Below are positions 7,191 to 22,798 of a stretch of 41,151 bases of DNA, in pieces. This DNA comes from Pseudomonadota bacterium. GTDB lineage: Bacteria > BMS3Abin14. How positions within the stretch are numbered: the stretch's first letter is position 1; the number at the start of each line of letters is the position of its first letter. Made by a program: the position numbers and the translations under genes. The notes under the pieces are model-generated. The model saw nothing but the letters and a program-made list of their open reading frames with translations, did not search any database and was not told the origin of the DNA. The stretch covers positions 1-41,151 of the forward strand of contig QIEJ01000185.1 in the NCBI GenBank assembly GCA_003228585.1. Direction: 5' to 3'.

Positions 7191-7663
7191 GGAGCCTCCT
7201 CGAGGTGATCCGCAAGGAATCTGGCAGCATCTTCAGCCAACAACCTGACGGCTGCCCGACGGTTCCAGTCCAGCACATTCATGTCCTGTGTCCACAGGTA
7301 GGTTCTCGAAACGTCACCCCTGCTGACCGAATCAGCACCTTCAGGTATCCCGGAGATTCTCCACTCAAAAGTCATTGAGATACGTTCTCGAACAGGCTCC
7401 CCGGAAGATGCAACGGATCCGACCCTCTCGCTGAAACCGGTTATAACGAGGTCTATGTCCCGGGGTCCACCGTCCCTGCGCAAACCAGCCACCTTCGCCA
7501 GGGCCTCTTCCATAGCCTCCGTCAGGAATGGTTCCTCTGTGACATTCCTCAGTTCACCCAGGGAAAAATCCTTCCCACTGAAAGGGCGGACTGCCCGGTA
7601 CCCACACTGCGACACCAGGAGGGCACAGAGAAATATTGCAAGGGGCAGGGACAGACTTCTCAC
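7187..7663 (-). CDS. lptE: LPS-assembly lipoprotein LptE-like
   Basis: 158 aa with a lipoprotein signal peptide [20 protein letters not shown] (lipobox LVSQC). It sits between leuS and holA with 4-nt overlaps on both sides. Confidence 0.55.
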
Positions 7664-10281: not shown

Positions 10282-10656
10282 TCAAATTTTCAGGAGTTCC
10301 TTAACGGTGGAGAGGAGGTTTGTGGACTGGATGGGCTTGGTAATGTAGGCGTCCGCTCCCAGGGCCATGGCCCGTTCCCTGTCTTCCCTTGCGCCTTCCG
10401 TTGTGATTATGACAATTGGTATATCCTTGTAGCTGTCGTTTCCCCGTACGAGACTGACCAGCTTTAACCCATCCATGATGGGCATGTTGATGTCGGTAAG
10501 GATCAGATCAACCTCGTTGGAGGACAGCTTTTTCAGTCCATCGACTCCGTCGGATGCCTCTATCACTTCGGCCTTCGGAATGCGGTTAAGGGCAAATCGT
10601 ATAAGCTGCCTCATGGTTGGGGAATCTTCTATGACCAGAAACTTTAACGCTGCCAT
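10282..10656 (-). CDS. CheY-like single-domain response regulator
   Basis: 124 aa: LVIEDS, phospho-acceptor context LILTDINMPIMDG, IITTEG, KP. Paralogous to the cheY at 20525..20896. Confidence 0.85.
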   Translation of the reverse strand: MAALKFLVIEDSPTMRQLIRFALNRIPKAEVIEASDGVDGLKKLSSNEVDLILTDINMPIMDGLKLVSLVRGNDSYKDIPIVIITTEGAREDRERAMALGADAYITKPIQSTNLLSTVKELLKI

Positions 10657-10669
10657 TTGATTTCTCCCT

Positions 10670-11509
10670 TCACTTCTGACTCAGCAGATCGAGAAATCCC
10701 TGGTAGGTGGTCAGTTTCCTCCTGGATTCGGAATAGAGCCTTGCGCTGAAAATAGCCGTCGCTGCATGTCCGGCAAGAAGCGTGAAAAGCTCAAAGTCCA
10801 CAGGGGCGAACTTCACCTTCTGTTGGAGAAGTTTATACAGTGTAATCACGCCTATAAGCTCATCCTTTATCAGAAGTGGAATACAGACGAGGGGATCTTT
10901 GAACAGCTCATCTCTGGTTGAGGGGGGCATCTCATTAAAATAGCTCGTCTTTTCCTGGGCAGCGGAACCTATGATCCCCTCACCCATGGCGATGGGGCTA
11001 ATCTCCTCCAGCCCAACACCTTCAGACCCGGCCGGAATCAACTGATTGGTCTTCTCGTCGAGGAGAAATACGGCAAAATCCTCCGCTCCGATCAGGTTGA
11101 TAATGATCTCGAGGATAATCTGCAGCACCTCCTCGTAGTCAAGAGTCGAGTGGAGTTGAAAGCTTGCTACATAGAGGTTGGCCAGATTGTTATTCTGTTC
11201 CTCAACATCGACATAACGTCGAGCAAAATCGATATTCTCCTCCTCGACCTCACTCAGTTTCCCAGCCAGGTCCTGAATTTTCTCTTCATAGATGGCGACC
11301 TTTCTTGAAAGCTCCAGGTACTGGGAATTATCTGTCGGAGAACCGGCAGAAGGATTCGGGCCTGACTTCAGCGTCTCCTCAAGCTGCACGACCCTGTATC
11401 GCAGTCGCTCATTTTCCTTGAGGAGATCCTGGGTAAATTCCTGTCCCTGCCGGAACATTTCCAGAAACTCTTCACCCTTTTCGAAAAGTTTTGTTTTTTT
11501 CTCGCTCAT
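10670..11509 (-). CDS. Coiled-coil + GAF domain protein
   Basis: 279 aa. The N-terminal ~110 aa are heptad-rich and charged (LKENERLRYRVVQLEETL, KIQDLAGKLSEVEEEN). The C-terminal ~150 aa look GAF-like (ILEIIINLIGAEDFAVFLLDE...GEGIIGSAA...CIPLLIKDELIGVITL). Confidence 0.6.
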   Translation of the reverse strand: MSEKKTKLFEKGEEFLEMFRQGQEFTQDLLKENERLRYRVVQLEETLKSGPNPSAGSPTDNSQYLELSRKVAIYEEKIQDLAGKLSEVEEENIDFARRYVDVEEQNNNLANLYVASFQLHSTLDYEEVLQIILEIIINLIGAEDFAVFLLDEKTNQLIPAGSEGVGLEEISPIAMGEGIIGSAAQEKTSYFNEMPPSTRDELFKDPLVCIPLLIKDELIGVITLYKLLQQKVKFAPVDFELFTLLAGHAATAIFSARLYSESRRKLTTYQGFLDLLSQK

Positions 11510-11577
11510 TTATCCCGCTCCAGACTCGCCCCAGCTTTCCGAAAAGCGCCCCCCCAAAAGCAAAGGATGTAGATATT

Positions 11578-11648
11578 CAGCTTCTGGTTTCCAGTTTCTG
11601 GTTTCTAGATTTAACTTAGTACGTAGTACTTAGTACATTGTACTTAGT
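11578..11648 (-). repeat. Two abutting heptanucleotide arrays in the cheB/GAF intergenic leader
   Basis: Plus strand: cagcttc|tggtttc|cagtttc|tggtttc|tagattt, then acttagt|acgtagt|acttagt|acattgt|acttagt. About 10 units in 7-nt phase. Confidence 0.7.
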
Positions 11649-11655
11649 TGTCGAT

Positions 11656-12759
11656 TTAGTTACTAACATCGCTCCGGTCATTTTTCAAGCCACAGATGAC
11701 CTGTGACAATTCCTGGACCTTCTGCGGGATGCGGTCCAGAACCAGGACCGATCCAGCAGCGCCCTTTTGAACTGCGGCCCTGGGCATTCCGAAAACAACG
11801 GTGGATTCCTCCGACTCAGCGATGGTCTGGCCACCGGCCTGCCTGATCTTCAGCAGTCCTTCAGCTCCGTCATTACCCATCCCTGTAAGCAGGACTCCTA
11901 TGATTCTGGCACCCAGTGCATCCACGGCCGATGCCATAGTCATATCTATTGATGGGACAAATCGGTCTCCCTTCGATTTTTCTCTTATCGCGGCTACATA
12001 CCCCCGCTGTTTAACTATTTCCAGGTGATTCCCTCCAGGAGCCACGAGGACCTGACCTGGAACCAGTGGATCTCCTTGTTCAGCCTCCCTGACCTTGAAT
12101 GGTGTGTTTTTATCAAGTCGAACGGAAAACTGCCTTGTGAAAACCGGCGGCATATGCTGCACCACGATGATGGGGAGTGGAAAATCAGCCGACATCTGTG
12201 CCAGAGCCCTCTGTATGGCGGACGGCCCACCAGTGGACGCTCCAATAATGAGAACACCTTCAATACTTTTCGCAATTTTTTGTATGACAGCCGCAGTCGC
12301 TGTCTCATGCTTCGCTTTCGCCTTTTTCAGATCTTTCAGGTACGGAACCACATCCTTCCCGGCCACAGCACGGATCTTTTCCTGGAGTTCCGCCTTGATC
12401 TCAACGATACGCTCAGAGGCATATCTCAGAGGTTTGACAACAAAATCCAGGGCGCCCAGATCCAGGGCTTTAAAGACGTTCTTTTCGCCCCCCTCAGCAC
12501 TGACGACAACTACCGGTAGAGGCCGGTTGCGCATCAGCCAGCGAAGAAAGGTGAAACCATCCATCCGGGGCATGTTCAGATCCAGTGTAATGACGTCCGG
12601 CGGATCGGACATAACCGTCTTTATGGCCTCCTCACCGTTGGACACAACGTCCACGGAACCAACCTCCTCCATAGCCAGCAGTATGGTTCTGAGCATCTTC
12701 CGGTTGTAGGCGGAGTCATCAACCACCAGAACGGACAGAGTTTTTTTGCCGGCCTTCAT
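11656..12759 (-). CDS. cheB: Protein-glutamate methylesterase CheB (REC + esterase)
   Basis: 367 aa with a receiver domain (VLVVDDS...VITLDLNMPRMDG) and an esterase domain (GASTGGP, VQHMPP, GMGNDG). Confidence 0.9.
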   Translation of the reverse strand: MKAGKKTLSVLVVDDSAYNRKMLRTILLAMEEVGSVDVVSNGEEAIKTVMSDPPDVITLDLNMPRMDGFTFLRWLMRNRPLPVVVVSAEGGEKNVFKALDLGALDFVVKPLRYASERIVEIKAELQEKIRAVAGKDVVPYLKDLKKAKAKHETATAAVIQKIAKSIEGVLIIGASTGGPSAIQRALAQMSADFPLPIIVVQHMPPVFTRQFSVRLDKNTPFKVREAEQGDPLVPGQVLVAPGGNHLEIVKQRGYVAAIREKSKGDRFVPSIDMTMASAVDALGARIIGVLLTGMGNDGAEGLLKIRQAGGQTIAESEESTVVFGMPRAAVQKGAAGSVLVLDRIPQKVQELSQVICGLKNDRSDVSN

Positions 12760-13616
12760 ACATCGTCTCCCGGCTTCTGGTAGACCATTACCTGAGTAAG
12801 GTGCTTCAGCCTGAAGGCCGTTGTAATATTCATCAACGATTCAGAGTGTCCTAAAAGTAAATATCCACCTGTGGCAAGCTTCCGGTGAAAGGCATTGACA
12901 ACCCTGGCCTTGGCGTTTTTATCAAAATATATAATGACGTTCCTGCAAATAATGACATCACACTCGCCTATCAGCCCCAACATCTTTTCATCAAGAAGAT
13001 TGTGGTGCCCGAAATGAACCATGGACCGGATGGATTCATCGAGGACATATTTCCCATCTTCGAACCTGGTGAAATAGCTCTGGATGCTGGAATTATCGGT
13101 AACTCTGAATGAGGACTGTGAATATTCAGCCTTCCTGGCCGATTTAAGGACCTGTTGACTGATATCCGTCCCGATGATGTCGATCTTCCAACCTTCGAAA
13201 ATTCCTGATTCTTTTATCAGGATAGCCAGGGTGTAGGGTTCCTCACCGGTGGAGCAGCCGGCACTCCAGATGCGAATATGTCTGGTCTGTGCCTTTCGTT
13301 GAGCAAGTTCAGGTAGTATTTCCTCTGAAAAAGCATCAAGCTGATTCTTTTCCCTGAAAAAATATGTTTCGTTGGTTGTGATAATATCCAGCAGTTCATT
13401 GATTTCCTGAACTTTATCCTGGTGAAAGAGTAGATAGTGATAATATTTCAGGAAGGAGTCAAAGTGGTGAGCTCGAAGCCTGTTCTGAAGTCGGCTCTCA
13501 AGAAGGAACCTGCTGGATTGGTCAAAAAAAAGACCGCAGTACTCATATATGAACCCGGACAGAAGTCTGAACTCCTCATCTGCCAGTTCGATCCTCCCGG
13601 TGGTATCAAAAAGCAT
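12756..13616 (-). CDS. cheR: Chemotaxis protein methyltransferase CheR
   Basis: 286 aa with ETYFFRE and the SAM-binding motif IWSAGCSTGEEPYT. 4-nt overlap with cheB and 11-nt overlap with the upstream HEAT gene. Confidence 0.9.
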   Translation of the reverse strand: MLFDTTGRIELADEEFRLLSGFIYEYCGLFFDQSSRFLLESRLQNRLRAHHFDSFLKYYHYLLFHQDKVQEINELLDIITTNETYFFREKNQLDAFSEEILPELAQRKAQTRHIRIWSAGCSTGEEPYTLAILIKESGIFEGWKIDIIGTDISQQVLKSARKAEYSQSSFRVTDNSSIQSYFTRFEDGKYVLDESIRSMVHFGHHNLLDEKMLGLIGECDVIICRNVIIYFDKNAKARVVNAFHRKLATGGYLLLGHSESLMNITTAFRLKHLTQVMVYQKPGDDV

Positions 13617-15654
13617 CTGGATTCCTTGATTCCATCAGGGATCGGATAGTGTCCCGAACGGTTCTATCCGAATCAGATTCGGCCATATCCATCAGGGTCT
13701 GAAGCGTCCCTTCATCCTCATTATCCACGAGGGAATGTGCAGCAAAGATCCTTACGCTGGCATCATCATCCCTTGTGGCCTGGAGAAGAAGTGCCAGGCT
13801 TCTCTCTCCGGGAACCTTTCCAAGAACCCTGCAGATACTCCTCCTGATCTCCACAACCTCCTTCTTGAAGGCATCCTCAAGAATATCCATAACATTCTCG
13901 TGACCTTCCGAGCCTCTTTGACCAAGCGCCTCAACTACAGAAGTTTTGATCATGAGGTCGTCGCCGAGCATGAGATCGGAAAGATCATCCGGCTCCATGT
14001 CGGGATGAACGCTAAGGGCTGAGACAGCAGCGGAGCGAACCCATGGATCCTGATCAAACAGGGCTGCCCTCAGTGGCTCCGCTGCTCCAGGAGATTTCAG
14101 GATCTCCAGAGCCATGGCGGCTTCAACCCGAACAGCAGGGCTTTCGTCGGCCAGGGAGTTGATGACTGCTGATGCGGCCGAAAGGTCGCTGGTTCTCTTC
14201 AGACCGCCGACAGCCGCTGCTCTGACAACCGGCTCGGCATCGTGAAGGGCACCCAAAAACAGCTTCAGATGCCCTGAGACATCCACTTGCCCTAGCACTC
14301 GGATAAGAAGAGCTTTTATCTCCGGTTGGGATTCGGGCAACAGAGGCACGATCTTTTTTGAAAGGGAGGCAGAATATTTTATGCCCAGCCTGACGAGTGC
14401 TTCAGCCGCAGCCTCAGAGACGTCACGATACTCATCGGGCAGAAGGTCCAGAAGCGGGTCTATGGAGTCGCTGTCGCCCAGGATAGACACCGCCTGTGCC
14501 GCGTCTTTTCGCACATGTCCGCTTTCATCCTTGAGCATGGGATAAATATCCTGGAGTAAATCGGTGTCGCCGAGCAGTGCCAGGACCTGAAGGGCCCGTC
14601 TGCGAACCAGTTCATCCTGGTTTTCCAAAAGCACGGTGAGCACAGAAGAGTCCCTTTCGGCGAAACGGTAAAGCGCCATATTCACGTCCCACTCCATTGA
14701 TTCATCCTCAACCATGGAGAGGCCGGCCTCGAGGGCCCGTTGGCCACCGATCATGCTCAGTGCAGCAAGATAGCCCTGCTTGTTCTCAAGATTGTCCGAG
14801 ACAGCAAGCTGGTCGGCCATGAATTCCACAATCTGGATATCAGCCGCAGATGCCACTTTCCCCGAGAAGGATTCCAGACCTTCCTGAACTCCTTCCACCA
14901 GGGCTCTTCGACAGATCAACCCGGCAGCCAGGAAAACCGCTTTAGCGGCGCCGCGAGGCATCGATGGGAGGATCTCAAGGAGCCGGGAGCCCTCATCCAG
15001 TGAGCCAATTCTCCCGATCCCATGGATCGCCGGGTTCGCAAGGAGCCTGTTGTCCAGATACCTGAAGAAAATCGGAAGCGCCTCCGTGTCCTCCAACCTT
15101 GCCAGAGCACTGAGAATACTGAAAGCTACCCAATTATCCGCTCCTTCAAGTGCGCCTATGAGAGCCCTGCTCGAGGCACTGTCTCCAATGGAAGCCAGGC
15201 TCTCGGCGGTTGCAGCCCGTATGTTGTCCTTCGGATCATCGAGCATTCTCACAAGATCCGGAATTACTGAGGGATCAGCTATGTTCCCGAGGATGTCCAC
15301 GAGGAACTTTCTCACATCGGGCTGGTCAATAGAGAGGTGGCCGCTAATTAGAACGGCAGCATCGGGTCCCATTCCCTCCAGAGCCTCAACGATGGAGTTC
15401 CTGAGTGTCACCTCCCTTGAAGGATCCATAAGGGGAACCAGATGTGAGATCAGTTCCGGAGTCGGGTTAAGTCCGGAAAGACCCTCAATGGCTTCCTTCC
15501 GCACCCTCCAGCTCTCATCGGACAGAGGGATCTCAAGCCACTGGAGATCATCCTCCGTAAGATCCGCTTTCAGAGAGACCATCGCCTGGCGGCGCTGCTC
15601 CTCGTCTGAAGATCTCAAACCTGATATCAAGGCTTCTCTGGCCTCAGGTTCCAT
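13606..15654 (-). CDS. HEAT-repeat (PBS-lyase-type) protein embedded in the che operon
   Basis: 682 aa from ATG 15654 (MEPEAREAL). Many repeats of the D..VR..A...L type: WRVRKEAIEGL, NIRAATAESL, VRRRALQVL, HVRKDAAQAV, PVVRAAAVGGL, AVRVEAAMAL, WVRSAAVSAL, SVRIFAAHSL. Confidence 0.75.
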   Translation of the reverse strand: MEPEAREALISGLRSSDEEQRRQAMVSLKADLTEDDLQWLEIPLSDESWRVRKEAIEGLSGLNPTPELISHLVPLMDPSREVTLRNSIVEALEGMGPDAAVLISGHLSIDQPDVRKFLVDILGNIADPSVIPDLVRMLDDPKDNIRAATAESLASIGDSASSRALIGALEGADNWVAFSILSALARLEDTEALPIFFRYLDNRLLANPAIHGIGRIGSLDEGSRLLEILPSMPRGAAKAVFLAAGLICRRALVEGVQEGLESFSGKVASAADIQIVEFMADQLAVSDNLENKQGYLAALSMIGGQRALEAGLSMVEDESMEWDVNMALYRFAERDSSVLTVLLENQDELVRRRALQVLALLGDTDLLQDIYPMLKDESGHVRKDAAQAVSILGDSDSIDPLLDLLPDEYRDVSEAAAEALVRLGIKYSASLSKKIVPLLPESQPEIKALLIRVLGQVDVSGHLKLFLGALHDAEPVVRAAAVGGLKRTSDLSAASAVINSLADESPAVRVEAAMALEILKSPGAAEPLRAALFDQDPWVRSAAVSALSVHPDMEPDDLSDLMLGDDLMIKTSVVEALGQRGSEGHENVMDILEDAFKKEVVEIRRSICRVLGKVPGERSLALLLQATRDDDASVRIFAAHSLVDNEDEGTLQTLMDMAESDSDRTVRDTIRSLMESRNPDAF

Positions 15655-16561
15655 TGTCCTCCTCAGGCCGCGCCGATCCGACACCGCGGGAGCCAAGCAG
15701 ATCGAGCATTTCATTAGAGAGAATCTGATGATAATCACCCTCGTATTCCGGGAACTGTTGTTTGAGCAGATCTACTCCTTCCTGTATTTCGGCGGCTATC
15801 ATCTCAAGAATCCGCTCAGGCACTGAATTCCTTATTGTATCCTCGCTGTAAAGCGCTATATCACTGACAATGACTCTGCACGTTCTCCTGATCCTTTCCT
15901 CGAATGTTTCATCAGAACCCCCCACCAGATTCCGATGAATCTGCTCCAGCTCTCTCCTGTCGTCAATCTCCTGATCCGTCGGCGGCTTGACAAGATCAGG
16001 TCCTGCCTTCATGGGCCCCGATTCAGGCCCCGGATCGATGAGTCTTCTTATCTTTGGTGCCAGAAAGTCAGGGAGATGATGCCTTTCGATATGGTCATCT
16101 GCACCATAAAGTGATGTGGGGGCTCTCTTGTAGCGTGTCCCATGGTAAAGTGAGGACAGGAGAATAATGGGGAATTTTCTGTCCTTGAGAGTCTCCTTCA
16201 GTCTGTCGATCATCTCGTAGCCCACCATGTCGGGAAGAGAGACGCTTACCAATGCCGCATCGGGAGGAGATTGGGAGATGATCTCGAGAGCCTGTTCCCC
16301 GGTTGGCGATACCCGTCCACGTAAACCATCCCTGGCGAGGATTTTCAGGATCAACTGTGCGAGCTCCACTTCGTACACAACAACGAGAATCTCATGAACT
16401 GCACCTTCCGGATTTACAGCGTCATCAGGAAGGGCAATGGAGACCAGCGAGCCGCATTTCCTGCAGTTAAAAGATATGACACCGGGTGGGAGCTTTTCAG
16501 GATGAATCCTGTAGTATTTCCCACAGATGTTACAGCGTGAAATATTAAAATTATCCTTCAT
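15644..16561 (-). CDS. MJ0042-type zinc-ribbon + degenerate receiver (pseudo-REC) protein
   Basis: 305 aa from ATG 16561 (MKDNFNISR). CxxC...CxxC ribbon: CNICGKYYRIHPEKLPPGVISFNCRKCG. The REC-like fold has the phospho-acceptor replaced: LVSVSLPDMVG aligns with DxxMPxMDG, so D becomes S. The acidic pair is VYEVE and K becomes R in GADDHIERH. Confidence 0.6.
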   Translation of the reverse strand: MKDNFNISRCNICGKYYRIHPEKLPPGVISFNCRKCGSLVSIALPDDAVNPEGAVHEILVVVYEVELAQLILKILARDGLRGRVSPTGEQALEIISQSPPDAALVSVSLPDMVGYEMIDRLKETLKDRKFPIILLSSLYHGTRYKRAPTSLYGADDHIERHHLPDFLAPKIRRLIDPGPESGPMKAGPDLVKPPTDQEIDDRRELEQIHRNLVGGSDETFEERIRRTCRVIVSDIALYSEDTIRNSVPERILEMIAAEIQEGVDLLKQQFPEYEGDYHQILSNEMLDLLGSRGVGSARPEEDNGT

Positions 16562-17363
16562 CCTTCGAGACCTCAGTGTCATCACAGTCAACGGCCAGGA
16601 CTTTTTGAAGGTTCAGAAGGATAATCAGCCGTTCATCCACCTTACCGATCCCGATGAGAAATTCACCCTCCACACTTCCAACGATCTCGGGGGGAGGATC
16701 GATCCTGTTCAGTGGAACATCCATCACCTGTACGACCAGGTCAACGAGCAGACCGAAAAAGTGCTCGTTGGATTTCACAACGATGATCCTGTTCTTTGGA
16801 TCCTGCTCAGTGGCAGCCAATCCCAGTCTTTTTTTCACATCAAAGACCGGGATAATGACACCCCGCAGGGAGATGATACCCTGAATATAAGCCGGCGTCC
16901 TGGGAACTTCCGTAGCCTCCCTTGGCCTGACGATCTCCTTGATGTCCATGATATTCAGACCGTATTCCTCATCCCCAAGCATGAAGGTAAGAAGCTGTAT
17001 CTGCTCCTCTTCCTCCACCGCCTTTTCCTCATGCTGACTCCGGAGGATGTCTTTCAGGTCCTTCAGTTCTCCCTCGACAGCCTCCTCAAGGGCAACAGTT
17101 GAGACCTCCGCCTTAACCTCGGCCGGAACCATGGGACTTTCCTCTACAGCAGGAGCGGCTTCTGTTTTCTCCTCGGGAACCTCTGGAGCCTGAGTCTCAG
17201 TACTCTGTTCCTCAGCATCAGCAGCAGGCGAAGGTCTCTGAACCGGCTGCTTTTTCGCAGGTCTTTTTTTCGGTTTTGAAGCCTCGGACTTTTTGGTCCC
17301 GCTTCCCCTTTTTTTTGCCGTTCCGGCTTCTTTCGCTTTTTTCCTGATCTTCACCAGATCCAT
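16551..17363 (-). CDS. cheW: CheW-domain coupling protein with a long low-complexity N-terminal extension
   Basis: Start chosen at ATG 17363 (MDLVKIRKK); the ORF-track start lies inside repeat C1. A ~130-aa Lys/Pro-rich then Glu-rich segment precedes a CheW domain (LLTFMLGDEEYGLNIMDIKEIV...IISLRGVIIPVFDVKKRLG...FGLLVDLV). Confidence 0.8.
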   Translation of the reverse strand: MDLVKIRKKAKEAGTAKKRGSGTKKSEASKPKKRPAKKQPVQRPSPAADAEEQSTETQAPEVPEEKTEAAPAVEESPMVPAEVKAEVSTVALEEAVEGELKDLKDILRSQHEEKAVEEEEQIQLLTFMLGDEEYGLNIMDIKEIVRPREATEVPRTPAYIQGIISLRGVIIPVFDVKKRLGLAATEQDPKNRIIVVKSNEHFFGLLVDLVVQVMDVPLNRIDPPPEIVGSVEGEFLIGIGKVDERLIILLNLQKVLAVDCDDTEVSKDEG

Positions 17364-17394
17364 TTTATTTCCCTTTTTTGAGGTCAAGACCTTT

Positions 17395-17490
17395 ACCACA
17401 GAGGACTCAGAGAGCACAGAGGAGTTCTGAAATCAAAAACCTTATTGAAAAACTAAAAAACCCTCTGTGTCCTCCGTGATCTCTGTGGTT
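17395..17490. repeat. Family-C inverted-repeat element, copy 1
   Basis: Left arm accacagaggactcagagagcacagagg (three CACAGAGNN units), an AT-rich ~40-nt non-conserved core, and right arm ccctctgtgtcctccgtgatctctgtggtt (complementary units). Same ends and orientation as 20936..21032. Confidence 0.8.
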
Positions 17491-17497
17491 CAATTTT

Positions 17498-18313
17498 TCA
17501 TGCTTCCGCTGGTTCCAGATCGAGATCCTCCACGACATCCAGAACGATATCCGGACCGATGTGCGCAAGTTCCTTTGAAAAGCCCGTCAGAAGAGCGTTG
17601 GCTGCAATGTTGTTGATTATCCTGGGCAATCCACCTGAGTATCGATAGATGACATCAATGGCATCATCTGTGAAGAGACCACCCTCCCCACCGGCTTCCA
17701 GAAGTCGGTGAGCAACGTACCCTCCCGTATCCTCCCTCCCCATTGATCCCAGGTGGTATTGAATCCCAATCCGCTGTCGAATGGCCTCGTAAGGGGATTG
17801 TTTGAGTCTTTTTCTCAACTCGGTCTGGCCGATAAGAATAAGGGAAAGAAGATTCAGGTCGTCGAGTTGAAAGTTGGTTAGAAGACGAATCTCATCGAAT
17901 GTCGCCTTGGAGGGGATCAACTGTGCTTCGTCGATGATGATCACGGGGCACATATCCTCCTCAAAATTATTGAACAGAAACTCATTTATCTGTTCGAGCA
18001 GGTCCGTCCTGAAATATGCCGGCTGGGCCACGCCCATCCTCAACGCCAGGGTTCTGAGGAACTGATTGGGAGTGAGCCTGGGGTTGATGAGCAGAATAGG
18101 GCGGTAATTCTCGGGAAGCAAATCGATCAGGGCCCGGCTCAGCAGCGTTTTTCCGGTACCTATCTCGCCCGTTAGAAGGGTCAACTCTCTCTCTTCGGCC
18201 CCGTAACGGATCCGTTCGAGAGCTTCCTGATGAATGGGACTCCTGTACAGGAAAGCCGGATTGGGTGTTTTCCCGAAAGGCCTGGTGTGAAATCCGAAGT
18301 GCTCCTCGTACAC
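17498..18313 (-). CDS. ExeA/GspA/MshM-like AAA ATPase
   Basis: 271 aa with a GTG start 3 nt after the cheA stop. N-terminal FGFHTRPFGKTPNPAFLYRSPIHQEAL, Walker A LTGEIGTGKT, Walker B-like VIIIDEAQ. Confidence 0.7.
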   Translation of the reverse strand: MYEEHFGFHTRPFGKTPNPAFLYRSPIHQEALERIRYGAEERELTLLTGEIGTGKTLLSRALIDLLPENYRPILLINPRLTPNQFLRTLALRMGVAQPAYFRTDLLEQINEFLFNNFEEDMCPVIIIDEAQLIPSKATFDEIRLLTNFQLDDLNLLSLILIGQTELRKRLKQSPYEAIRQRIGIQYHLGSMGREDTGGYVAHRLLEAGGEGGLFTDDAIDVIYRYSGGLPRIINNIAANALLTGFSKELAHIGPDIVLDVVEDLDLEPAEA

Positions 18314-18316
18314 GAC

Positions 18317-20350
18317 CTATGCCCCCCTGCCTGCCGTACCAAGCTTGATGGCATCTACCATGAGGCCCGCCACGTCCAGTACAAGTACGGTGGATTGGTC
18401 CCCCAGTTCCGCGGCTCCTGCCAGAGCGGTGATTTTAGCGAATGCCTCCCCAAGGGGTTTTATGACGATATCCTGTTTGCCGAGCATCTCCTGAACGGCC
18501 AGGGCCATAGTTCTGTGCCCTATTCCAATAATAACCGCGTAGACTTCTCCATCATCCTCACATCTCGGAAAATCGAAGATCTCCTCCAATCGAAGTAATG
18601 GTAAGGTCCTGTCCCTAAGGTTGATAACCTCCTTGCCCCGCATGGTCTTGATGTCCGCACCGGTAAGCTGGATGGTTTCATGGATCGAACCCAGTGGAAT
18701 GGCAAACGTCCTTTCCGCGCTCCTTATCAGGAGTGCCTGGAGGATGGCCAGGGTGATGGGCAGGGTGAGAGTGACCCTGGTGCCGTGATCCTTTACAGTA
18801 CTTACTTCAACAGTCCCTCCCACCTTTTCCAGTTCTCTCCGGACAACGTCCATCCCAACACCCCGCCCGGAAATCTCTGTGACGGTCTTTTTGGTGGAAA
18901 ACCCCGGTTTAAACAGAAGGGAGAGGAGCTCCTCGTCGGTCAAGGTCTCACCATCCTCGAGGACTCCACTACCAAGGGCCGACAATTTCACTTCCTCAAG
19001 ATCAATGCCCTGACCATCGTCCTGGACCTCGAGAACAACGTGGTTGCCCTGTTGATAGGCGGATAGCCTGACCAGTCCTATCTCTTTTTTCCCTTTTGCA
19101 CGGCGCACATCAGCACTCTCAATGCCGTGATCAACCGAATTGCGGACCATATGCAGGAGAGGTGATACCATTTCCTCCATAATCATCTTATCCAGTTCCG
19201 TATCCCCACCGACAAACTCGAAATTGATCTCTTTGTTCAATTCTCGGGCGATCTTCTTAGACACCCTCTGAAGCCTGTTGAATAACTGGCCCATGGGGAC
19301 CATTCGGATACTCATGACCGAATCACGCAGATCGATGAGTTTCTTTTCCATCTGAGTGTTGATCTTGTCCATCTCCAGGAGGGTTTCAGCCTGTCCCCCC
19401 TCGCCATCTTTTCTCATACGATCAGCAATGCTGGAAAAATTTGATCTGAGAAGCACTAACTCTCCGGCAAGGTTCATGAGGTAATCGAGTTTGACAATGT
19501 CCACCCTTACTGTGTTGCTGACGCCCCTGACCTCTTCCTCGAGATTGTCTCCACCTGTCCTGCCAACCTTCTTTTCCATGAGGGTTCCATCGGAAACAGA
19601 AGTGCCCGGATCTCTGTAATCGACCGCAACCAGATCGGTGTCTTCGGTTTGAAACCTGCCTCTTAACTCTTCTTCCGGCTTTCTGCTGGTAAAGTAGAGG
19701 AGAAAACCGATGGCTCCGTCCGGCCCACCCTCGGTCTGAGGCAGTGTGGTCAACAGCTCCCCGATCTCCTTGATGCCGTCACTGATCTGTTTGAGCTGGA
19801 CGTCAAAACTACGGAGAGAAAAGTTGCATGCCAGCCGGAAAAACGGGATCCTTTTCCCAATGTTATCCCTGAAACGGTGCTCTTCGTACTCTGAAAGGAT
19901 CTCGGCCATTCCCTCGGGAACATCAATGTGAGCGTACAGGTCCTCAGAAACAGTGTGCTCCCGGTTCTGTACTACGCGCTCCAGATCCTTTAAGAATTCC
20001 TCCGTGCTGACTGAAGCATCCCCTTCACCCTCTGCAACAGCATGAACCATCCTGATTATGAGACGTACGCCATCGGACAGAAGTTCCACGACCTCATCGG
20101 AGAGCGCCACCTTGTCCAGGCGAAGGGAATCGAGAAGGCTTTCGACATGATGAGAAAGTGAACCGAGATTCTCCAGGTTCAACATGCTCGAAAGACCTTT
20201 CAGAGAGTGGGCATTGCGGAAAATGGCGTTGATGATATCCGGTTTCCGATGATCGTCCGGAGAAAGATCCATCAAAAGAACGATAGAACTGTCCAGGTCG
20301 TCCAGAATATCCTCTGCTTCGGACACGAAATCTTTAAGGGATTGATCCAT
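18317..20350 (-). CDS. cheA: Chemotaxis histidine kinase CheA
   Basis: 677 aa: Hpt (FRNAHSLKG), dimerisation/HATPase (HMVRNSVDHG, VQDDGQGID, SGRGVGMD) and a C-terminal CheW-like domain. Confidence 0.93.
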   Translation of the reverse strand: MDQSLKDFVSEAEDILDDLDSSIVLLMDLSPDDHRKPDIINAIFRNAHSLKGLSSMLNLENLGSLSHHVESLLDSLRLDKVALSDEVVELLSDGVRLIIRMVHAVAEGEGDASVSTEEFLKDLERVVQNREHTVSEDLYAHIDVPEGMAEILSEYEEHRFRDNIGKRIPFFRLACNFSLRSFDVQLKQISDGIKEIGELLTTLPQTEGGPDGAIGFLLYFTSRKPEEELRGRFQTEDTDLVAVDYRDPGTSVSDGTLMEKKVGRTGGDNLEEEVRGVSNTVRVDIVKLDYLMNLAGELVLLRSNFSSIADRMRKDGEGGQAETLLEMDKINTQMEKKLIDLRDSVMSIRMVPMGQLFNRLQRVSKKIARELNKEINFEFVGGDTELDKMIMEEMVSPLLHMVRNSVDHGIESADVRRAKGKKEIGLVRLSAYQQGNHVVLEVQDDGQGIDLEEVKLSALGSGVLEDGETLTDEELLSLLFKPGFSTKKTVTEISGRGVGMDVVRRELEKVGGTVEVSTVKDHGTRVTLTLPITLAILQALLIRSAERTFAIPLGSIHETIQLTGADIKTMRGKEVINLRDRTLPLLRLEEIFDFPRCEDDGEVYAVIIGIGHRTMALAVQEMLGKQDIVIKPLGEAFAKITALAGAAELGDQSTVLVLDVAGLMVDAIKLGTAGRGA

Positions 20351-20358
20351 TGAATCGA

Positions 20359-20428
20359 GTTCCAGGTTTCAGGTTTAAGGTTTCAAGTTTCAAGTCAGGA
20401 CAAAGAACAAAGTGCGAAGTACAAACGC
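20359..20428 (-). repeat. Ten-unit heptanucleotide array immediately upstream of the cheA start
   Basis: Plus strand: gttccag|gtttcag|gtttaag|gtttcaa|gtttcaa|gtcagga|caaagaa|caaagtg|cgaagta|caaacgc, beginning 9 nt from ATG 20350. Confidence 0.7.
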
Positions 20429-20502
20429 ACGTCATTGCGAGGACCCTGAGTCCCGCCTTTGGCGGGATCGAACGGTCGAAGCGGTTTTCCTTTGCACTTT
20501 GT
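20407..20502. repeat. Family-B element, copy 1 (hairpin core bracketed by a 13-nt inverted repeat)
   Basis: Core 20431..20475 gtcattgcgaggaccctgagtcccgcctttggcgggatcgaacgg contains the hairpin cccgcc-ttt-ggcggg. Flanks are acaaagtgcgaag (20407..20419) and ctttgcactttgt (20490..20502), 12/13 complementary. The core recurs at 40771..40815. Confidence 0.75.
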
Positions 20503-20524
20503 ACTGGTTGTTTGGCTCCTGTTT

Positions 20525-20896
20525 TCATTCGCCAAGCAATTCTTTCACAAAACCCTGAAGCTCCTCCGGGTCAAAGGGTTTTATTACGTAACGGTCCGCT
20601 CCGAGTTTTAACCCTCTTTCCCGGTCGACATCCCGACCTTCGGTGGTGACAATGATCACTGGAATATGTCTGAACTGTTCGCTATGTTTGACAAATCGGA
20701 CGACCTCGAGACCGTTGATGTCCGGCATGTTAATATCAGTGATAACCAGATCAGGTACGATTTCGGGAAGTTTACGCAGTGCCTGGAAACCGTTGGCAGC
20801 TTCAACGACCGTAAAGTCTCCCAAGTCCTCCAGGGACGTGACGATCAGGGATCTCGTCATCGAGGAATCTTCAACTACCAGGATTTTTTTCGCCAT
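20525..20896 (-). CDS. cheY: CheY response regulator
   Basis: 123 aa: ILVVEDSS, LVITDINMPDINGLE, IIVTTEG, IKPF. Confidence 0.9.
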   Translation of the reverse strand: MAKKILVVEDSSMTRSLIVTSLEDLGDFTVVEAANGFQALRKLPEIVPDLVITDINMPDINGLEVVRFVKHSEQFRHIPVIIVTTEGRDVDRERGLKLGADRYVIKPFDPEELQGFVKELLGE

Positions 20897-20935
20897 GATT
20901 CAGCTCCTAAATCAACGAACTTCAGACTGCACATA

Positions 20936-21032
20936 ACCACAGAGGACACAGAGAGCACAGAGAAAAGCTGAATTTCCTGGGTAAGACAAAGTTCTTCCTC
21001 TCCCAACACCTAACCTCTGTGATCTCTGTGGT
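20936..21032. repeat. Family-C inverted-repeat element, copy 2
   Basis: accacagaggacacagagagcacagag ... cctctgtgatctctgtggtt, in the same orientation as copy 1. The central ~45 nt are unrelated to copy 1. Confidence 0.8.
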
Positions 21033-21046
21033 TCAGGCCGTTCCAG

Positions 21047-22798
21047 TTAGCTTCCTCCCTGATCTTCCCTGAGCTTCATCTCCAGAAAGGCTCTGTCCAG
21101 GGCCAATCCTGTGTGGCTCAGGAAAATATCCATGCTGCTTGTCGGCGCCAGACCCGCCCGCTCGGGAAAATCATCGGCATAAAGAATAACCGCGACCTTT
21201 CCCATGGTGATAATGGGACCTATGTAGATTTCATGAGGCTTGCCGCCGCCGAGTTCCTCGAAAAGTGCCCTCTCGATTTCACTGTCGGATGGAGCACCCC
21301 GAAAACTCTGTTGAGTCTGAATAACCCTTGAAAATACGGAGTCATCACACGAAGAAATTACCAGGGACCGGACGGCGGAATCAGCATCCCTTCCTTCGCC
21401 GAGATGGACACCGAATTGGCCCAAACCCTTGATGTCAATTTTTCTTACGAGAAAAAGAACGGCCCTGGAAGCGATCTCCGAGGCGAACCTCAACGCAAGG
21501 AGGGTAACCTCAACGCTGACATCTTTTCTGTTGAGTTCGGCCACATAGAAGCGCAAATTTGCCATGGCCGGATCGTGCAATTCCCGGGCTTCACTTACAA
21601 CGCCTTCCTCCAGTCCGTCGAAGGGAAGATCCAGGCCCTCAAGGTCGTCCGACAGTTCCTGCTGTATATCGTAATACTCGACCTCCTGGAGCTCGACCGA
21701 CTCATCCCGGCCTGATAATACGTTCGCAAATGCCGCTACTCTCTCTGCCCAGGGAACGTCCTCCTCTTCGCCCATCTTTGAAGCTTCCAAGGGTATAAGA
21801 GTTACACTCTCAATGCCTGACAATTTATTCTCAAGTTCGGGGGAAACATCACCTCTGTGCAGAATTACCGCAGGCAGATTGAATCCCAGATCCCAAAGAG
21901 TAGACAGGATGTCCAGCGCACCGAAAATCATTCCGTCCGTGATCCCTCCAACTTTCAGGTCAGTAACAATCAGGGGATAAATATTTTCGGTTCTCAGTTC
22001 CTGTATCCGTGTCAAGGCAGGGGCTGCACTCTCAAGTGCACAAACTTTGATATCAACTGATTCCAGCGCCCTTTTCAACTCAGCTTCCCGTTCCTGATCT
22101 TCAGAAACCAGAACAATAACTCTATCTGTTTTCTCCGGCAGCGGTGGCTGGATATCCGGAATATCAAATTGGGTTTTGTCTTCCTCACCCGGCATTTCGT
22201 CAAGGTCAAGTTGGAATTCGATAACATTATCCTGACCTGGCTGACCTTGCTGCTCGGGTTGCAATATCTCATTCGGCGAGGCATCCCTGACAAGTTCATC
22301 CTCGCGTCTGGCACCCTCCATAACCAGAAACTGGGCATTGATCCCTTCTTCAAGAAAGAGGGGTTTCATACGATTCAGTGCGGGATGGTCACCCTCACTG
22401 TCGATCAACTGAAAACTGAAAGTCCCCTCCTCCCAGAGAAAAAGAGAGAACATGATCTCCTCGACTCTTTTTTGCAGGACTTTTTCGAAGGAATCTGTCG
22501 GAATATTCAGTTCACTACTCACCAGCTCCTTCAGATCTTCTATCCTTTCACAGGTCTCCAGGCGTCCCTTCAGTGGTTTCAACTGTGACATATCAAGAAG
22601 CCCATGATGGACCAGAAGACCCAGCAAACCATCCTTTTCCCCGGAACGGCCGGCATAAAGTATCATCCCGTTCCGGATGTATACATTCGCCCCTCCCGCA
22701 GGGCCCTCGAGACGAAGAAGTCCGGACCGTCTGCTGAGACTCACAATCTGAAGAATCTCGCCCAGAGAAAGATCCTCCAGCTTGCCCACCAGACTCAT
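21047..22798 (-). CDS. DUF4388 (PATAN) - receiver-like - GAF-like multidomain protein
   Basis: 583 aa from ATG 22798: MSLVGKLEDLSLGEILQIVSLSRRSGLLRLEG (DUF4388 signature). The middle is REC-like (RVIVLVSEDQ...YPLIVTDLKVGG). The C-terminal ~170 aa look GAF-like. The ORF-track start at 22996 would overlap the upstream gene by 139 nt. Confidence 0.6.
   Translation of the reverse strand: MSLVGKLEDLSLGEILQIVSLSRRSGLLRLEGPAGGANVYIRNGMILYAGRSGEKDGLLGLLVHHGLLDMSQLKPLKGRLETCERIEDLKELVSSELNIPTDSFEKVLQKRVEEIMFSLFLWEEGTFSFQLIDSEGDHPALNRMKPLFLEEGINAQFLVMEGARREDELVRDASPNEILQPEQQGQPGQDNVIEFQLDLDEMPGEEDKTQFDIPDIQPPLPEKTDRVIVLVSEDQEREAELKRALESVDIKVCALESAAPALTRIQELRTENIYPLIVTDLKVGGITDGMIFGALDILSTLWDLGFNLPAVILHRGDVSPELENKLSGIESVTLIPLEASKMGEEEDVPWAERVAAFANVLSGRDESVELQEVEYYDIQQELSDDLEGLDLPFDGLEEGVVSEARELHDPAMANLRFYVAELNRKDVSVEVTLLALRFASEIASRAVLFLVRKIDIKGLGQFGVHLGEGRDADSAVRSLVISSCDDSVFSRVIQTQQSFRGAPSDSEIERALFEELGGGKPHEIYIGPIITMGKVAVILYADDFPERAGLAPTSSMDIFLSHTGLALDRAFLEMKLREDQGGS

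What the first reader, a model, noticed from the sequence alone, without database searches (positions are those of the whole stretch)
10282..22798. MCP-less chemosensory cluster built around non-canonical accessory proteins
Eleven consecutive minus-strand genes encode cheA, cheW, cheR, cheB and two cheY paralogues, so methylation-dependent adaptation is present. No methyl-accepting chemotaxis protein is visible: none of the ORFs shows the long MCP signalling hairpin. In its place the cluster carries a DUF4388-REC-GAF protein, an ExeA-like AAA ATPase, a zinc-ribbon pseudo-receiver, a 682-aa HEAT-repeat protein and a coiled-coil GAF protein. CheW carries a ~130-aa basic-then-acidic disordered N-terminal extension. 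The packing indicates translational coupling. There is a 3-nt gap from cheA to the ATPase. There are 11-nt overlaps of the form ATGNNNNNNTRA at cheW/zinc-ribbon, zinc-ribbon/HEAT and HEAT/cheR. There is a 4-nt overlap at cheR/cheB. HEAT (PBS-lyase-like) partners of Che pathways are known from Myxococcus Che7 (Cpc7), which suggests an alternative-cellular-function pathway rather than flagellar chemotaxis. This particular combination of components is not one I can assign to a described system.
Basis: partly seen in the sequence, partly recalled or inferred. Interest (0 to 1): 0.6.

Follow-up and report, generated by a model that had tools for sequence, protein, structure and literature searches.

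The report
Geobacter-type receptor-less chemosensory operon
This is a real 11-gene chemotaxis-like operon without its own receptor gene, but it is the counterpart of a cluster already catalogued in Geobacter; its receptors are encoded elsewhere in the genome, and it probably steers a cell-polarity GTPase rather than flagella.

Summary
Eleven consecutive minus-strand genes (10282-22798) encode PATAN-REC-GAF, CheY, CheA, an ExeA-like AAA ATPase, a long CheW, a zinc-ribbon pseudo-receiver, a 682-aa HEAT protein, CheR, CheB, a coiled-coil GAF protein and a second CheY. None carries an MCP signalling domain.

The claim that this set matches no described system does not hold. The same genes in the same order, next to leuS, occur in Geobacter, Geomonas, Geotalea and Desulfuromonas. 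This is the 'beta-group' che cluster (Tran 2008), which I equate with the Esn locus (Chan 2017). Nitrospirota versions carry one to three MCP genes inside the cluster.

Those MCPs are of the long 64H type with an unusual hairpin-tip motif. This genome has exactly three orphan MCPs of that type, so the receptors are encoded elsewhere rather than replaced.

The cluster is conserved across the organism's small candidate phylum (HEAT protein in 14 of 16 genomes). The genome lacks flagellar markers but has mglBA and PilB/PilT-type ATPases.

The zinc-ribbon pseudo-receiver ends in a RomX-like domain that keeps the residues RomX needs to act on MglA. The likely output is therefore polarity or pilus control.

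The scan has found this cluster type at least 13 times before on other DNA. Verdict: new member of a known, poorly understood kind.

The parts
21047..22798 (-). PATAN(DUF4388)-REC-GAF protein, 583 aa
   Evidence: PF14332 at 3e-22. The N-terminus MSLVG... is conserved in 27 homologues. The AF2 model shows PATAN, a receiver fold and a GAF fold, and the best PDB hits are 6oaq (REC-GAF) and 5w10 (GAF). Asp280 is kept, but the conserved Lys-Pro of the family is lost in this phylum.
20525..20896 (-). CheY paralogue 1, 123 aa
   Evidence: Response_reg at 7e-28. The acidic pocket, Asp, Thr and Lys are visible in the sequence.
18317..20350 (-). CheA, 677 aa (Hpt, dimerisation, HATPase_c and CheW-like domains)
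   Evidence: Pfam. It is 40-41% identical over its full length to the CheA of the Geobacter and Geotalea beta-type clusters, whereas paralogues match only over the kinase core. Tree.
17498..18313 (-). ExeA/GspA-like AAA+ ATPase, 271 aa, GTG start 3 nt after the cheA stop
   Evidence: AAA_22 at 1e-20. It matches TIGR03015 over its full length at 225 bits, below the 324.5-bit cut-off. It holds the same position in Geobacter, Nitrospirota and the window's own phylum. The Walker A (GEIGTGKT) and Walker B (IIIDEAQ) motifs are visible in the sequence.
16551..17363 (-). Long CheW, 270 aa from ATG 17363 (the ORF is open to GTG 17417): conserved N-terminal peptide, basic-then-acidic linker, CheW domain
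   Evidence: CheW at 2e-36. The MDLxxIRKKA peptide is conserved in 52 homologues while the linker is not. Charges are +13 then -17.
15644..16561 (-). Zinc ribbon - pseudo-receiver - RomX-like domain protein, 305 aa
   Evidence: Zn_ribbon_4 at 27 bits and Response_reg at 35 bits. The four Cys are conserved, and Ser or Asn replaces the phospho-Asp throughout the phylum, whereas Geobacter keeps Asp. Receiver fold with target-normalised TM-score (TMt) about 0.83. The C-terminal domain hits PDB 8zna (RomX) at E=1e-3 for the window protein and 1e-14 for the Geomonas homologue, with the R11, R14 and D19 equivalents kept.
13606..15654 (-). HEAT-repeat protein, 682 aa
   Evidence: HEAT_2 at 5e-69 in 7 stretches. 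About 50 orthologues at 47-99% identity, and relatives at about 30% identity in Geobacterales and Nitrospirota, always between cheW and cheR.
12756..13616 (-). CheR methyltransferase, 286 aa
   Evidence: CheR and CheR_N.
11656..12759 (-). CheB methylesterase with receiver domain, 367 aa
   Evidence: CheB_methylest at 3e-60 plus Response_reg. NF001965 at 358 bits, above its cut-off.
10670..11509 (-). Coiled-coil GAF protein, 279 aa
   Evidence: GAF_2 at 2e-15. Strongly conserved, including the coiled coil (EEFLxxFKKGxEFT, ENxDFAxRY, NNLANLY), in 55 homologues from three phyla.
10282..10656 (-). CheY paralogue 2, 124 aa
   Evidence: Response_reg at 1e-27.
17395..17490 (.). Palindromic repeat element in the ATPase-cheW spacer
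   Evidence: Direct and inverted repeats shared with the copy starting at 20935. Sequence shown.
20935..21030 (.). Second copy of the palindromic repeat, in the spacer between the PATAN gene and cheY (end coordinate approximate)

Best explanation
The cluster is this lineage's copy of the 'beta-group'/Esn-type non-flagellar chemosensory operon known from Geobacter.

Shown:
- The gene set, gene order and leuS neighbour match those in Geobacterales.
- CheA is orthologous to the CheA of those clusters.
- The cluster is conserved through the organism's candidate phylum.

Strongly inferred: the receptors are three transmembrane MCPs of the long 64H type encoded elsewhere (contigs C28, C69, C37). They have sCache, unknown and 4HB periplasmic sensor domains. 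They would form arrays with the long CheW and CheA, and CheR and CheB would adapt them.

Inferred: CheA~P passes phosphate to the two CheYs and to CheB. The output goes to the cell-polarity and type IV pilus apparatus rather than to flagella. The route is through the zinc-ribbon/pseudo-receiver/RomX-like protein, which would engage MglA-GTP as RomX does. The translationally coupled HEAT protein and the PATAN-REC-GAF protein probably take part. The HEAT protein may be the CheY~P target, by analogy with Myxococcus CheY7-Cpc7.

In this phylum both accessory receivers look degenerate. They would then act by binding rather than by phosphorylation. The roles of the ATPase and the coiled-coil GAF protein are unknown.
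For: Synteny: the order PATAN-CheY-CheA-ATPase-CheW-(CheY)-(CheW)-ZnREC-HEAT-CheR-CheB-ccGAF-CheY-LeuRS recurs in dozens of Geobacter, Geomonas, Geotalea and Desulfuromonas loci.

CheA orthology: full-length matches to the CheA of those clusters, but kinase-core-only matches to paralogues. All paralogues but one mis-called outlier, including this genome's two other CheAs, form a separate clade with 96/100 support.

Conservation in the phylum: the HEAT protein is found in 14 of 16 genomes. The full order with the same flanks is seen in seven further genomes and L018 (without the ATPase), and partial copies on four more.

Receptors:
- MCPs inside Nitrospirota clusters have 224-225 aa after the hairpin tip and the motif ALNAAI[IL]AAQAG.
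- This genome's three orphan MCPs share both features. Its other MCPs sit inside the two other che clusters.
- Orphans that align end to end with the 447-aa cytoplasmic domain of the C69 orphan (64H-type length) occur in 15 of 16 genomes of the phylum and in Geobacter.

Output:
- No FlhA and no FliG.
- Five T2SSE-family (PilB/PilT-type) ATPase genes.
- mglB-mglA present, with 354 bits to M. xanthus MglA. MglA is found in 16 of 16 genomes of the phylum and in 5 of 5 Geobacter and Nitrospirota genomes that carry the cluster.
- RomX-like domain with the R11, R14 and D19 equivalents kept. The role of those residues is given in bioRxiv 10.1101/2024.02.20.581209.

Literature:
- Beta-group clusters lack mcp genes (PMC2577667).
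- Loss of EsnB (CheW) or EsnC (CheA), or transposon insertions in the ATPase gene GSU2221, impairs electrode colonisation. EsnA is an orphan MCP that interacts with both proteins (PMC5585712).
Against: - No experiment exists for this organism.
- The RomX match of the window's own protein is weak (22.7 bits, E=1e-3). It rests partly on the family alignment.
- Pfam and NCBIfam do not recognise the domain.
- The genome also has a stand-alone RomX, so the fused domain may do something else.
- MglA co-occurrence was not tested against genomes that lack the cluster.
- In Geobacter the annotated receptor class is '40H' and the proposed output is a diguanylate cyclase, not MglA (PMC5585712).
- The assignment of the three orphans rests on class and co-occurrence, not on measured interaction.
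Confidence: 0.7

Rival explanations
1. The identity is the same (beta-group/Esn type), but the output is second-messenger and matrix or biofilm control. CheA would phosphorylate an unlinked REC-GGDEF protein, as proposed for EsnD in Geobacter. The accessory proteins would be array scaffolds only.
For: - The Esn model, with EsnD as a diguanylate cyclase (PMC5585712).
- Unpublished cluster-5 knockouts are said to alter extracellular matrix (PMC2577667).
- A GSU2224 insertion changes biofilm oxygen tolerance (PMC8242959).
- This genome has 11 GGDEF genes, including REC-GGDEF candidates on C58, C40 and C12.
Against: - No GGDEF gene is linked to the cluster in any of the roughly 90 loci examined.
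- This reading does not explain the conserved RomX-like and PATAN domains inside the cluster.
- It is not exclusive of the main explanation.
Confidence: 0.25
2. One reading: the pathway works without chemoreceptors. The GAF proteins, the HEAT protein, the ATPase and the pseudo-receiver would replace MCPs as the input layer, and CheR and CheB would act on a non-MCP substrate such as the coiled coil of the GAF protein.
For: - No MCP gene lies in the cluster or the window.
- The coiled coil of the GAF protein is highly conserved and rich in Glu.
Against: - Nitrospirota clusters have the same accessory genes plus MCPs.
- Matching orphan 64H MCPs co-occur with the cluster in this genome and across the phylum.
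- In Geobacter an orphan MCP interacts with the CheW and CheA of the homologous cluster (PMC5585712).
- The coiled coil shows no canonical methylation-site consensus.
Confidence: 0.05
3. It is an ordinary flagellar chemotaxis operon whose MCPs happen to be dispersed in the genome.
For: Dispersed MCP genes are common in genomes with flagellar chemotaxis.
Against: - A 98.1%-complete genome has no FlhA and no FliG.
- The cluster has no CheZ, CheC, CheD or CheV genes.
- Its accessory genes are of polarity, pilus or unknown type.
Confidence: 0.02

Closest known systems
Geobacter 'beta-group' che cluster (G. sulfurreducens cluster 5; Tran et al. 2008, PMC2577667) and the Esn electrode-sensing network (esnB = GSU2220 CheW, GSU2221 ATPase, esnC = GSU2222 CheA, with GSU2223 CheY and GSU2224 response regulator alongside; Chan et al. 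2017, PMC5585712; PMC8242959)
   Same: - cheA, cheW, cheR and cheB are present with no mcp gene.
- The same accessory genes occur in the same order next to leuS.
- CheA is orthologous.
- The receptor is an orphan MCP encoded elsewhere.
   Different: - This copy lacks the middle CheY and the second, short CheW.
- The pseudo-receiver has Ser or Asn instead of the Asp kept in Geobacter, and the PATAN-protein receiver has lost its conserved Lys.
- The host is a different, small candidate phylum without flagella.
- The candidate receptors have periplasmic sensor domains, whereas EsnA is a cytoplasmic GAF sensor.
- That Tran's cluster 5 equals GSU2212-2224 is my inference from gene order. The paper's text gives no locus tags.
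Myxococcus xanthus Che7 (CheY7 acting on the HEAT-repeat protein Cpc7; Darnell et al. 2014, cited through PMC11514114 and PMC9040617)
   Same: A HEAT-repeat protein is encoded inside a non-flagellar che cluster. This supports the idea that CheY~P binds the HEAT protein.
   Different: - Homology between this HEAT protein and Cpc7 was not tested. No Myxococcus protein appears among the 120 best hits.
- From my own recall, Che7 carries its own soluble MCP and a desaturase gene. I did not check this here.
- Earlier notes in this scan name Che8, not Che7, as the Myxococcus counterpart of the beta group. I did not test that.
Myxococcus xanthus RomR/RomX-MglA-MglB polarity module (RomX structure PDB 8zna; bioRxiv 10.1101/2024.02.20.581209)
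   Same: - The C-terminal domain of the zinc-ribbon protein matches RomX and keeps R11, R14 and D19.
- It is fused to a receiver-like domain, which recalls RomX binding to the RomR receiver.
- The preprint itself reports Zn-finger + REC + RomX-fold proteins among uncharacterised bacteria.
- mglBA and a stand-alone RomX are present in this genome.
   Different: - Here the RomX-like domain is fused to other domains and encoded in a che operon.
- The receiver lacks the phospho-Asp.
- No activity has been shown.
Cyanobacterial PATAN-domain response regulators (PixG/PatA type) that bind the type IV pilus motor (bioRxiv 10.1101/2021.06.11.447907; PMC11181946)
   Same: A PATAN domain followed by a receiver is encoded at the head of a chemotaxis-like operon.
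   Different: - This protein has an extra C-terminal GAF domain and a degenerate receiver.
- Interaction with PilB was not tested.

Membership tests
Geobacter beta-group / Esn-type che cluster | cheA, cheW, cheR and cheB clustered with no mcp gene | tested here: met
   Pfam on all 11 ORFs shows no MCPsignal match, and there is none on the contig. The definition is from PMC2577667, section 12.
Geobacter beta-group / Esn-type che cluster | Shared accessory genes (PATAN-REC-GAF, AAA ATPase after cheA, long CheW, Zn-ribbon REC, HEAT before cheR, coiled-coil GAF plus CheY after cheB) in the same order | tested here: met
   phmmer gene-order maps of 80 loci, including named Geobacter, Geomonas, Geotalea and Desulfuromonas genomes. 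The GSU2220-2224 order is given in PMC5585712 and PMC8242959.
Geobacter beta-group / Esn-type che cluster | CheA orthologous to the cluster's CheA rather than to other CheA paralogues | tested here: met
   Full-length matches of 514-521 bits, against at most 298 bits over the kinase core only for paralogues. All paralogues but one mis-called outlier (L137) form a separate clade with 96/100 support.
Geobacter beta-group / Esn-type che cluster | Cognate receptor is an orphan MCP of a matching length class | tested here: inconclusive
   Three orphans share the length (225-232 aa after the tip) and the tip motif of MCPs found inside Nitrospirota clusters and of Geobacter orphans. No interaction data exist. 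EsnA is annotated as class 40H, not 64H/40+24H (PMC5585712, PMC3543383).
Geobacter beta-group / Esn-type che cluster | Role in electrode or surface colonisation | not testable with these tools
   This would need genetics in a cultured host.
ACF (alternative cellular function) class of Wuichet and Zhulin / MiST | Class-specific HMM assignment of CheA, CheB and CheR | not testable with these tools
   The MiST class HMMs are not in Pfam or NCBIfam (PMC6943060).
ACF (alternative cellular function) class of Wuichet and Zhulin / MiST | Not linked to flagella | tested here: met
   No FHIPEP (FlhA) and no FliG_C match in a 98.1%-complete genome.
64H chemoreceptor class (for the three orphan MCPs) | About 32 heptads (224 aa) per arm of the signalling hairpin | tested here: met
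   225-232 residues from the hairpin tip to the C-terminus, and about 447 residues from the HAMP domain to the end. The class HMM itself was not available.
RomX family (for the C-terminal domain of the zinc-ribbon protein) | Sequence similarity to RomX with the helix-1 residues R11, R14 and D19 | tested here: met
   PDB 8zna at E=1e-14 for the Geomonas homologue and E=1e-3 for the window protein. The R-x-x-R-x-x-x-x-D pattern is kept, and R14 and D19 are invariant in the phylum.
RomX family (for the C-terminal domain of the zinc-ribbon protein) | Binds MglA-GTP and stimulates nucleotide exchange | not testable with these tools
   A biochemical assay is needed.
[quoted passage not shown] | Receptor-like coiled coil and kinase domains in one protein | tested here: not met
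   The coiled-coil GAF protein has no kinase domain and no MCP signalling domain. The definition is from bioRxiv 10.1101/2022.05.07.491037.
Myxococcus Che7 | HEAT protein homologous to Cpc7 and bound by the cluster's CheY | not tested
   No Cpc7 sequence could be reached, and the Darnell 2014 paper is not held.

The most novel reading that the evidence does not exclude
The beta-group/Esn class of chemosensory operons, whose output has never been defined, acts directly on the MglA polarity GTPase through its built-in zinc-ribbon/receiver/RomX-like protein. The HEAT and PATAN-REC-GAF proteins would be co-effectors. In this candidate phylum both accessory receivers have lost phosphorylation residues, so the Che kinase and the polarity switch would be coupled by binding alone. 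If so, a Frz-like control of cell reversals would exist in three or more phyla, wired by a different and simpler link.
Probability: 0.3. Interest if true: 0.6.

Novelty: new member of a known kind. Interest (0 to 1): 0.3.

Why it matters
The cluster type is widespread (Geobacterales, Nitrospirota and this candidate phylum). In Geobacter it matters for colonising electrodes. Even so, five of its proteins have no demonstrated function and its output is undefined.

This copy adds three things:
- It extends the cluster to a small, flagellum-less lineage, where it is nearly universal.
- It gives a clean receptor assignment: three 64H orphans against two other self-contained che systems.
- It supports a testable link to the MglA/RomX polarity module.

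It does not reveal a new kind of system.

Tried and rejected
- A hidden MCP domain in the coiled-coil GAF protein or the HEAT protein: none found, even at E<=10.
- A MAC-type methyl-accepting protein: rejected, because MACs contain kinase domains.
- Pfam and NCBIfam on the C-terminal domain of the zinc-ribbon protein: no family found in 27 members. Only the PDB sequence search found RomX.
- PDB sequence searches for the ATPase and the coiled-coil GAF protein: only generic P-loop or GAF hits.
- Locus tags for Tran's cluster 5 in the main text and supplements: none found.
- The Darnell 2014 Che7 paper is not held, so homology to Cpc7 and the identity of the Myxococcus counterpart (Che7 or Che8) stay untested.
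- The heptad classes 64H and 40+24H are not mentioned in Tran 2008. The 40+24H class is documented in PMC3543383.
- One row of the CheA tree (L137) was a mis-called ORF on a very long branch and should be ignored.
- The phylum could not be named.

Full report
**Observation.** The eleven minus-strand ORFs are present as described. Pfam confirms two stand-alone CheYs, CheA (Hpt, dimerisation, HATPase_c, CheW-like), CheW, CheR and CheB. It also confirms a 682-aa HEAT protein, an AAA_22 ATPase, a GAF protein with a roughly 120-aa coiled-coil N-terminus, a Zn_ribbon_4 plus weak receiver protein, and a DUF4388/PatA_N protein. No ORF has an MCPsignal match. A whole-genome search finds no MCP on the window's contig.

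Pfam did not see the REC and GAF parts of the PATAN protein. An AlphaFold2 model built on 27 homologues (pLDDT 78.7) shows PATAN, a receiver fold and a GAF fold. Its best PDB hits are a REC-GAF dual-sensor kinase (6oaq) and several GAF domains.

The junctions are as stated: a 3-nt gap, three 11-nt overlaps and one 4-nt overlap. Four other junctions have spacers of roughly 130 to 175 nt. Two of these hold copies of a palindromic repeat. CheW most likely starts at ATG 17363. The peptide MDLxxIRKKA at that start is conserved in 52 homologues, while the charged linker behind it is not.

**What it is.** The HEAT protein has about 50 orthologues (47-99% identity) in unnamed MAGs and relatives at about 30% identity in Geobacterales and Nitrospirota. 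I mapped the eleven window proteins onto 80 fetched loci. The order PATAN-CheY-CheA-ATPase-long CheW-(CheY)-(short CheW)-ZnREC-HEAT-CheR-CheB-ccGAF-CheY-LeuRS recurs in Geobacter hydrogenophilus, Geomonas, Geotalea, Desulfuromonas, Trichloromonas and Geothermobacter.

This corresponds to the 'beta-group' che clusters of Tran et al. 2008. Those are defined as conserved clusters with cheA, cheW, cheR and cheB but no mcp gene, found across delta-proteobacteria (PMC2577667). It also matches the G. sulfurreducens genes GSU2220 (esnB, CheW), GSU2221 (ATPase), GSU2222 (esnC, CheA), GSU2223 (CheY) and GSU2224 (response regulator) (PMC5585712, PMC8242959). Equating Tran's cluster 5 with these locus tags is my inference from gene order.

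CheA orthology is direct. The cluster CheAs of Geobacter and Geotalea match the window CheA over residues 4-672 at 40-41% identity. Every paralogue matches only over the kinase core. In a maximum-likelihood tree all paralogues but one mis-called outlier (L137), including this genome's other two CheAs, form a clade with 96/100 support, apart from the cluster CheAs.

**Conservation.** The organism belongs to a GTDB phylum with only 16 species genomes in one family. The HEAT protein is found in 14 of the 16, and in 10 of the 10 high-quality genomes. Seven further genomes show the complete eleven-gene order with the same flanks, NusB-hypothetical-metallophosphatase upstream and LeuRS downstream. 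One relative (L018) lacks the ATPase. One complete MAG has only the distal half of the cluster.

**Where the receptors are.** Nitrospirota versions of the cluster hold one to three MCP genes between the long and short CheW genes. These MCPs have 224-225 residues from the hairpin tip to the C-terminus. That is 32 heptads per arm, the 64H class recognised by MiST (PMC6943060), which I take to be the class called 40+24H in the Geobacteraceae annotation (PMC3543383). They also carry an unusual tip motif, ALNAAI[IL]AAQAGExGKGF.

This genome has three CheAs and six MCPs. Three of the MCPs sit inside the two other che clusters, on C5 and on C77+C85, which look like adjoining contigs. Of these, two carry the canonical IEAAR tip and the third (C77) a divergent one, and their arms are shorter. 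The remaining three are orphans on C28, C69 and C37. They have 225-232 residues after the tip and the AAQ tip motif. Their architectures are sCache_3_2-HAMP, HAMP and 4HB-HAMP.

Orphans that align end to end with the 447-aa cytoplasmic domain of the C69 orphan, one to three per genome, occur in 15 of 16 genomes of the phylum, never next to the cluster. They also occur in Geobacteraceae. None of the three ends in a CheR-tethering pentapeptide. The receptors are therefore encoded elsewhere, as shown for EsnA in Geobacter (PMC5585712), and are not replaced by the accessory proteins.

**Likely output.** The 98.1%-complete genome has no FlhA and no FliG. It has five T2SSE-family ATPase genes, including a PilB/PilT-like pair, and 11 GGDEF genes.

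Its C-terminal domain matches the solved RomX structure 8zna. The match is E=1e-14 for the Geomonas homologue and E=1e-3 for the window protein. The residues equivalent to R11, R14 and D19 are kept. R14 and D19 are invariant in the phylum. In RomX those residues are required for MglA-GTP binding and nucleotide exchange. The same preprint reports Zn-finger + REC + RomX-fold proteins among uncharacterised bacteria, and notes that the GltJ zinc-ribbon domain binds MglB (bioRxiv 10.1101/2024.02.20.581209).

The genome encodes mglB-mglA, with 354 bits to M. xanthus MglA, and a stand-alone 88-aa RomX. MglA is present in 16 of 16 genomes of the phylum and in five of five Geobacter and Nitrospirota genomes that carry the cluster.

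The receiver of the zinc-ribbon protein has Ser or Asn at the phospho-acceptor position throughout this phylum, whereas Geobacter keeps Asp. The receiver of the PATAN protein keeps the Asp but has lost the conserved Lys. From this I infer, without demonstration, that the pathway feeds the MglA polarity and type IV pilus apparatus. The HEAT protein is a plausible CheY~P target by analogy with CheY7-Cpc7 (PMC11514114, PMC9040617). A c-di-GMP or matrix output, as proposed for Esn in Geobacter, remains a serious and compatible alternative.

**Verdict.** The accessory proteins, however, do not replace receptors, and the system is a catalogued one. The scan has reported this cluster type at least 13 times in other genomes, with the same conclusion. 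Novelty: new member of a known kind. Interest is modest. It rests on the still unknown function of five conserved proteins and on the testable RomX-MglA link.

Noticed in passing
window 17395-17490 and 20935-21030: Two copies of a palindromic (REP/MITE-like) element of about 96 bp lie in intercistronic spacers. They bracket the cheY-cheA-ATPase block. The first copy overlaps the GTG-extended start of the cheW ORF, which argues for the ATG 17363 start.
   Followed up: partly
window 20359-20428 and 11578-11648: Runs of 7-nt tandem repeats (CTTGAAA-type and AGAAACC/ACTAAGT-type on the coding strand) lie directly upstream of cheA and of the coiled-coil GAF gene (seen).
   Followed up: no
L021:4449-7241 (Nitrospirota) and similar 924-974-aa genes in L024-L063: One of the MCPs inside Nitrospirota clusters carries a C-terminal Phosphonate-bd (periplasmic binding protein) domain after the complete 64H signalling hairpin. 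This is an unusual place for a sensor domain.
   Followed up: partly
genome contigs C77:1-1031 and C85:6985-7674: The two contigs appear to join through one split MCP gene. Joined, they give a third complete che system: MCP-CheY-CheA-MCP-CheW-CheR-CheB. That MCP ends in EFERF, a CheR-tethering pentapeptide-like motif which the three orphans lack.
   Followed up: partly
genome contig C7:26992-27561: A second MglA-like GTPase domain (57% identity) lies in a 440-aa open frame and is conserved across the phylum. It is on the same contig as two stand-alone cheW genes (C7:15153-16006).
   Followed up: no
window 35580-36785: A second, weaker DUF4388/PATAN-like protein (47 bits to the cluster's PATAN protein) lies 13 kb from the cluster. 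Another lies on contig C12 next to a REC-GGDEF gene.
   Followed up: no
window 7660-10143, and loci L027-L097: The cluster is followed by leuS in this phylum and in Geobacterales and other Thermodesulfobacteriota, but not in Nitrospirota. This linkage to a housekeeping gene is conserved across phyla.
   Followed up: partly
L128 (G013:C1:1309500-1329400) and L018: One single-contig MAG of the phylum (about 81% complete by marker genes) keeps only a truncated HEAT gene followed by CheR-CheB-ccGAF-CheY-LeuRS, with a different synthetase gene upstream. Another relative has the full cluster minus the ATPase.
   Followed up: no
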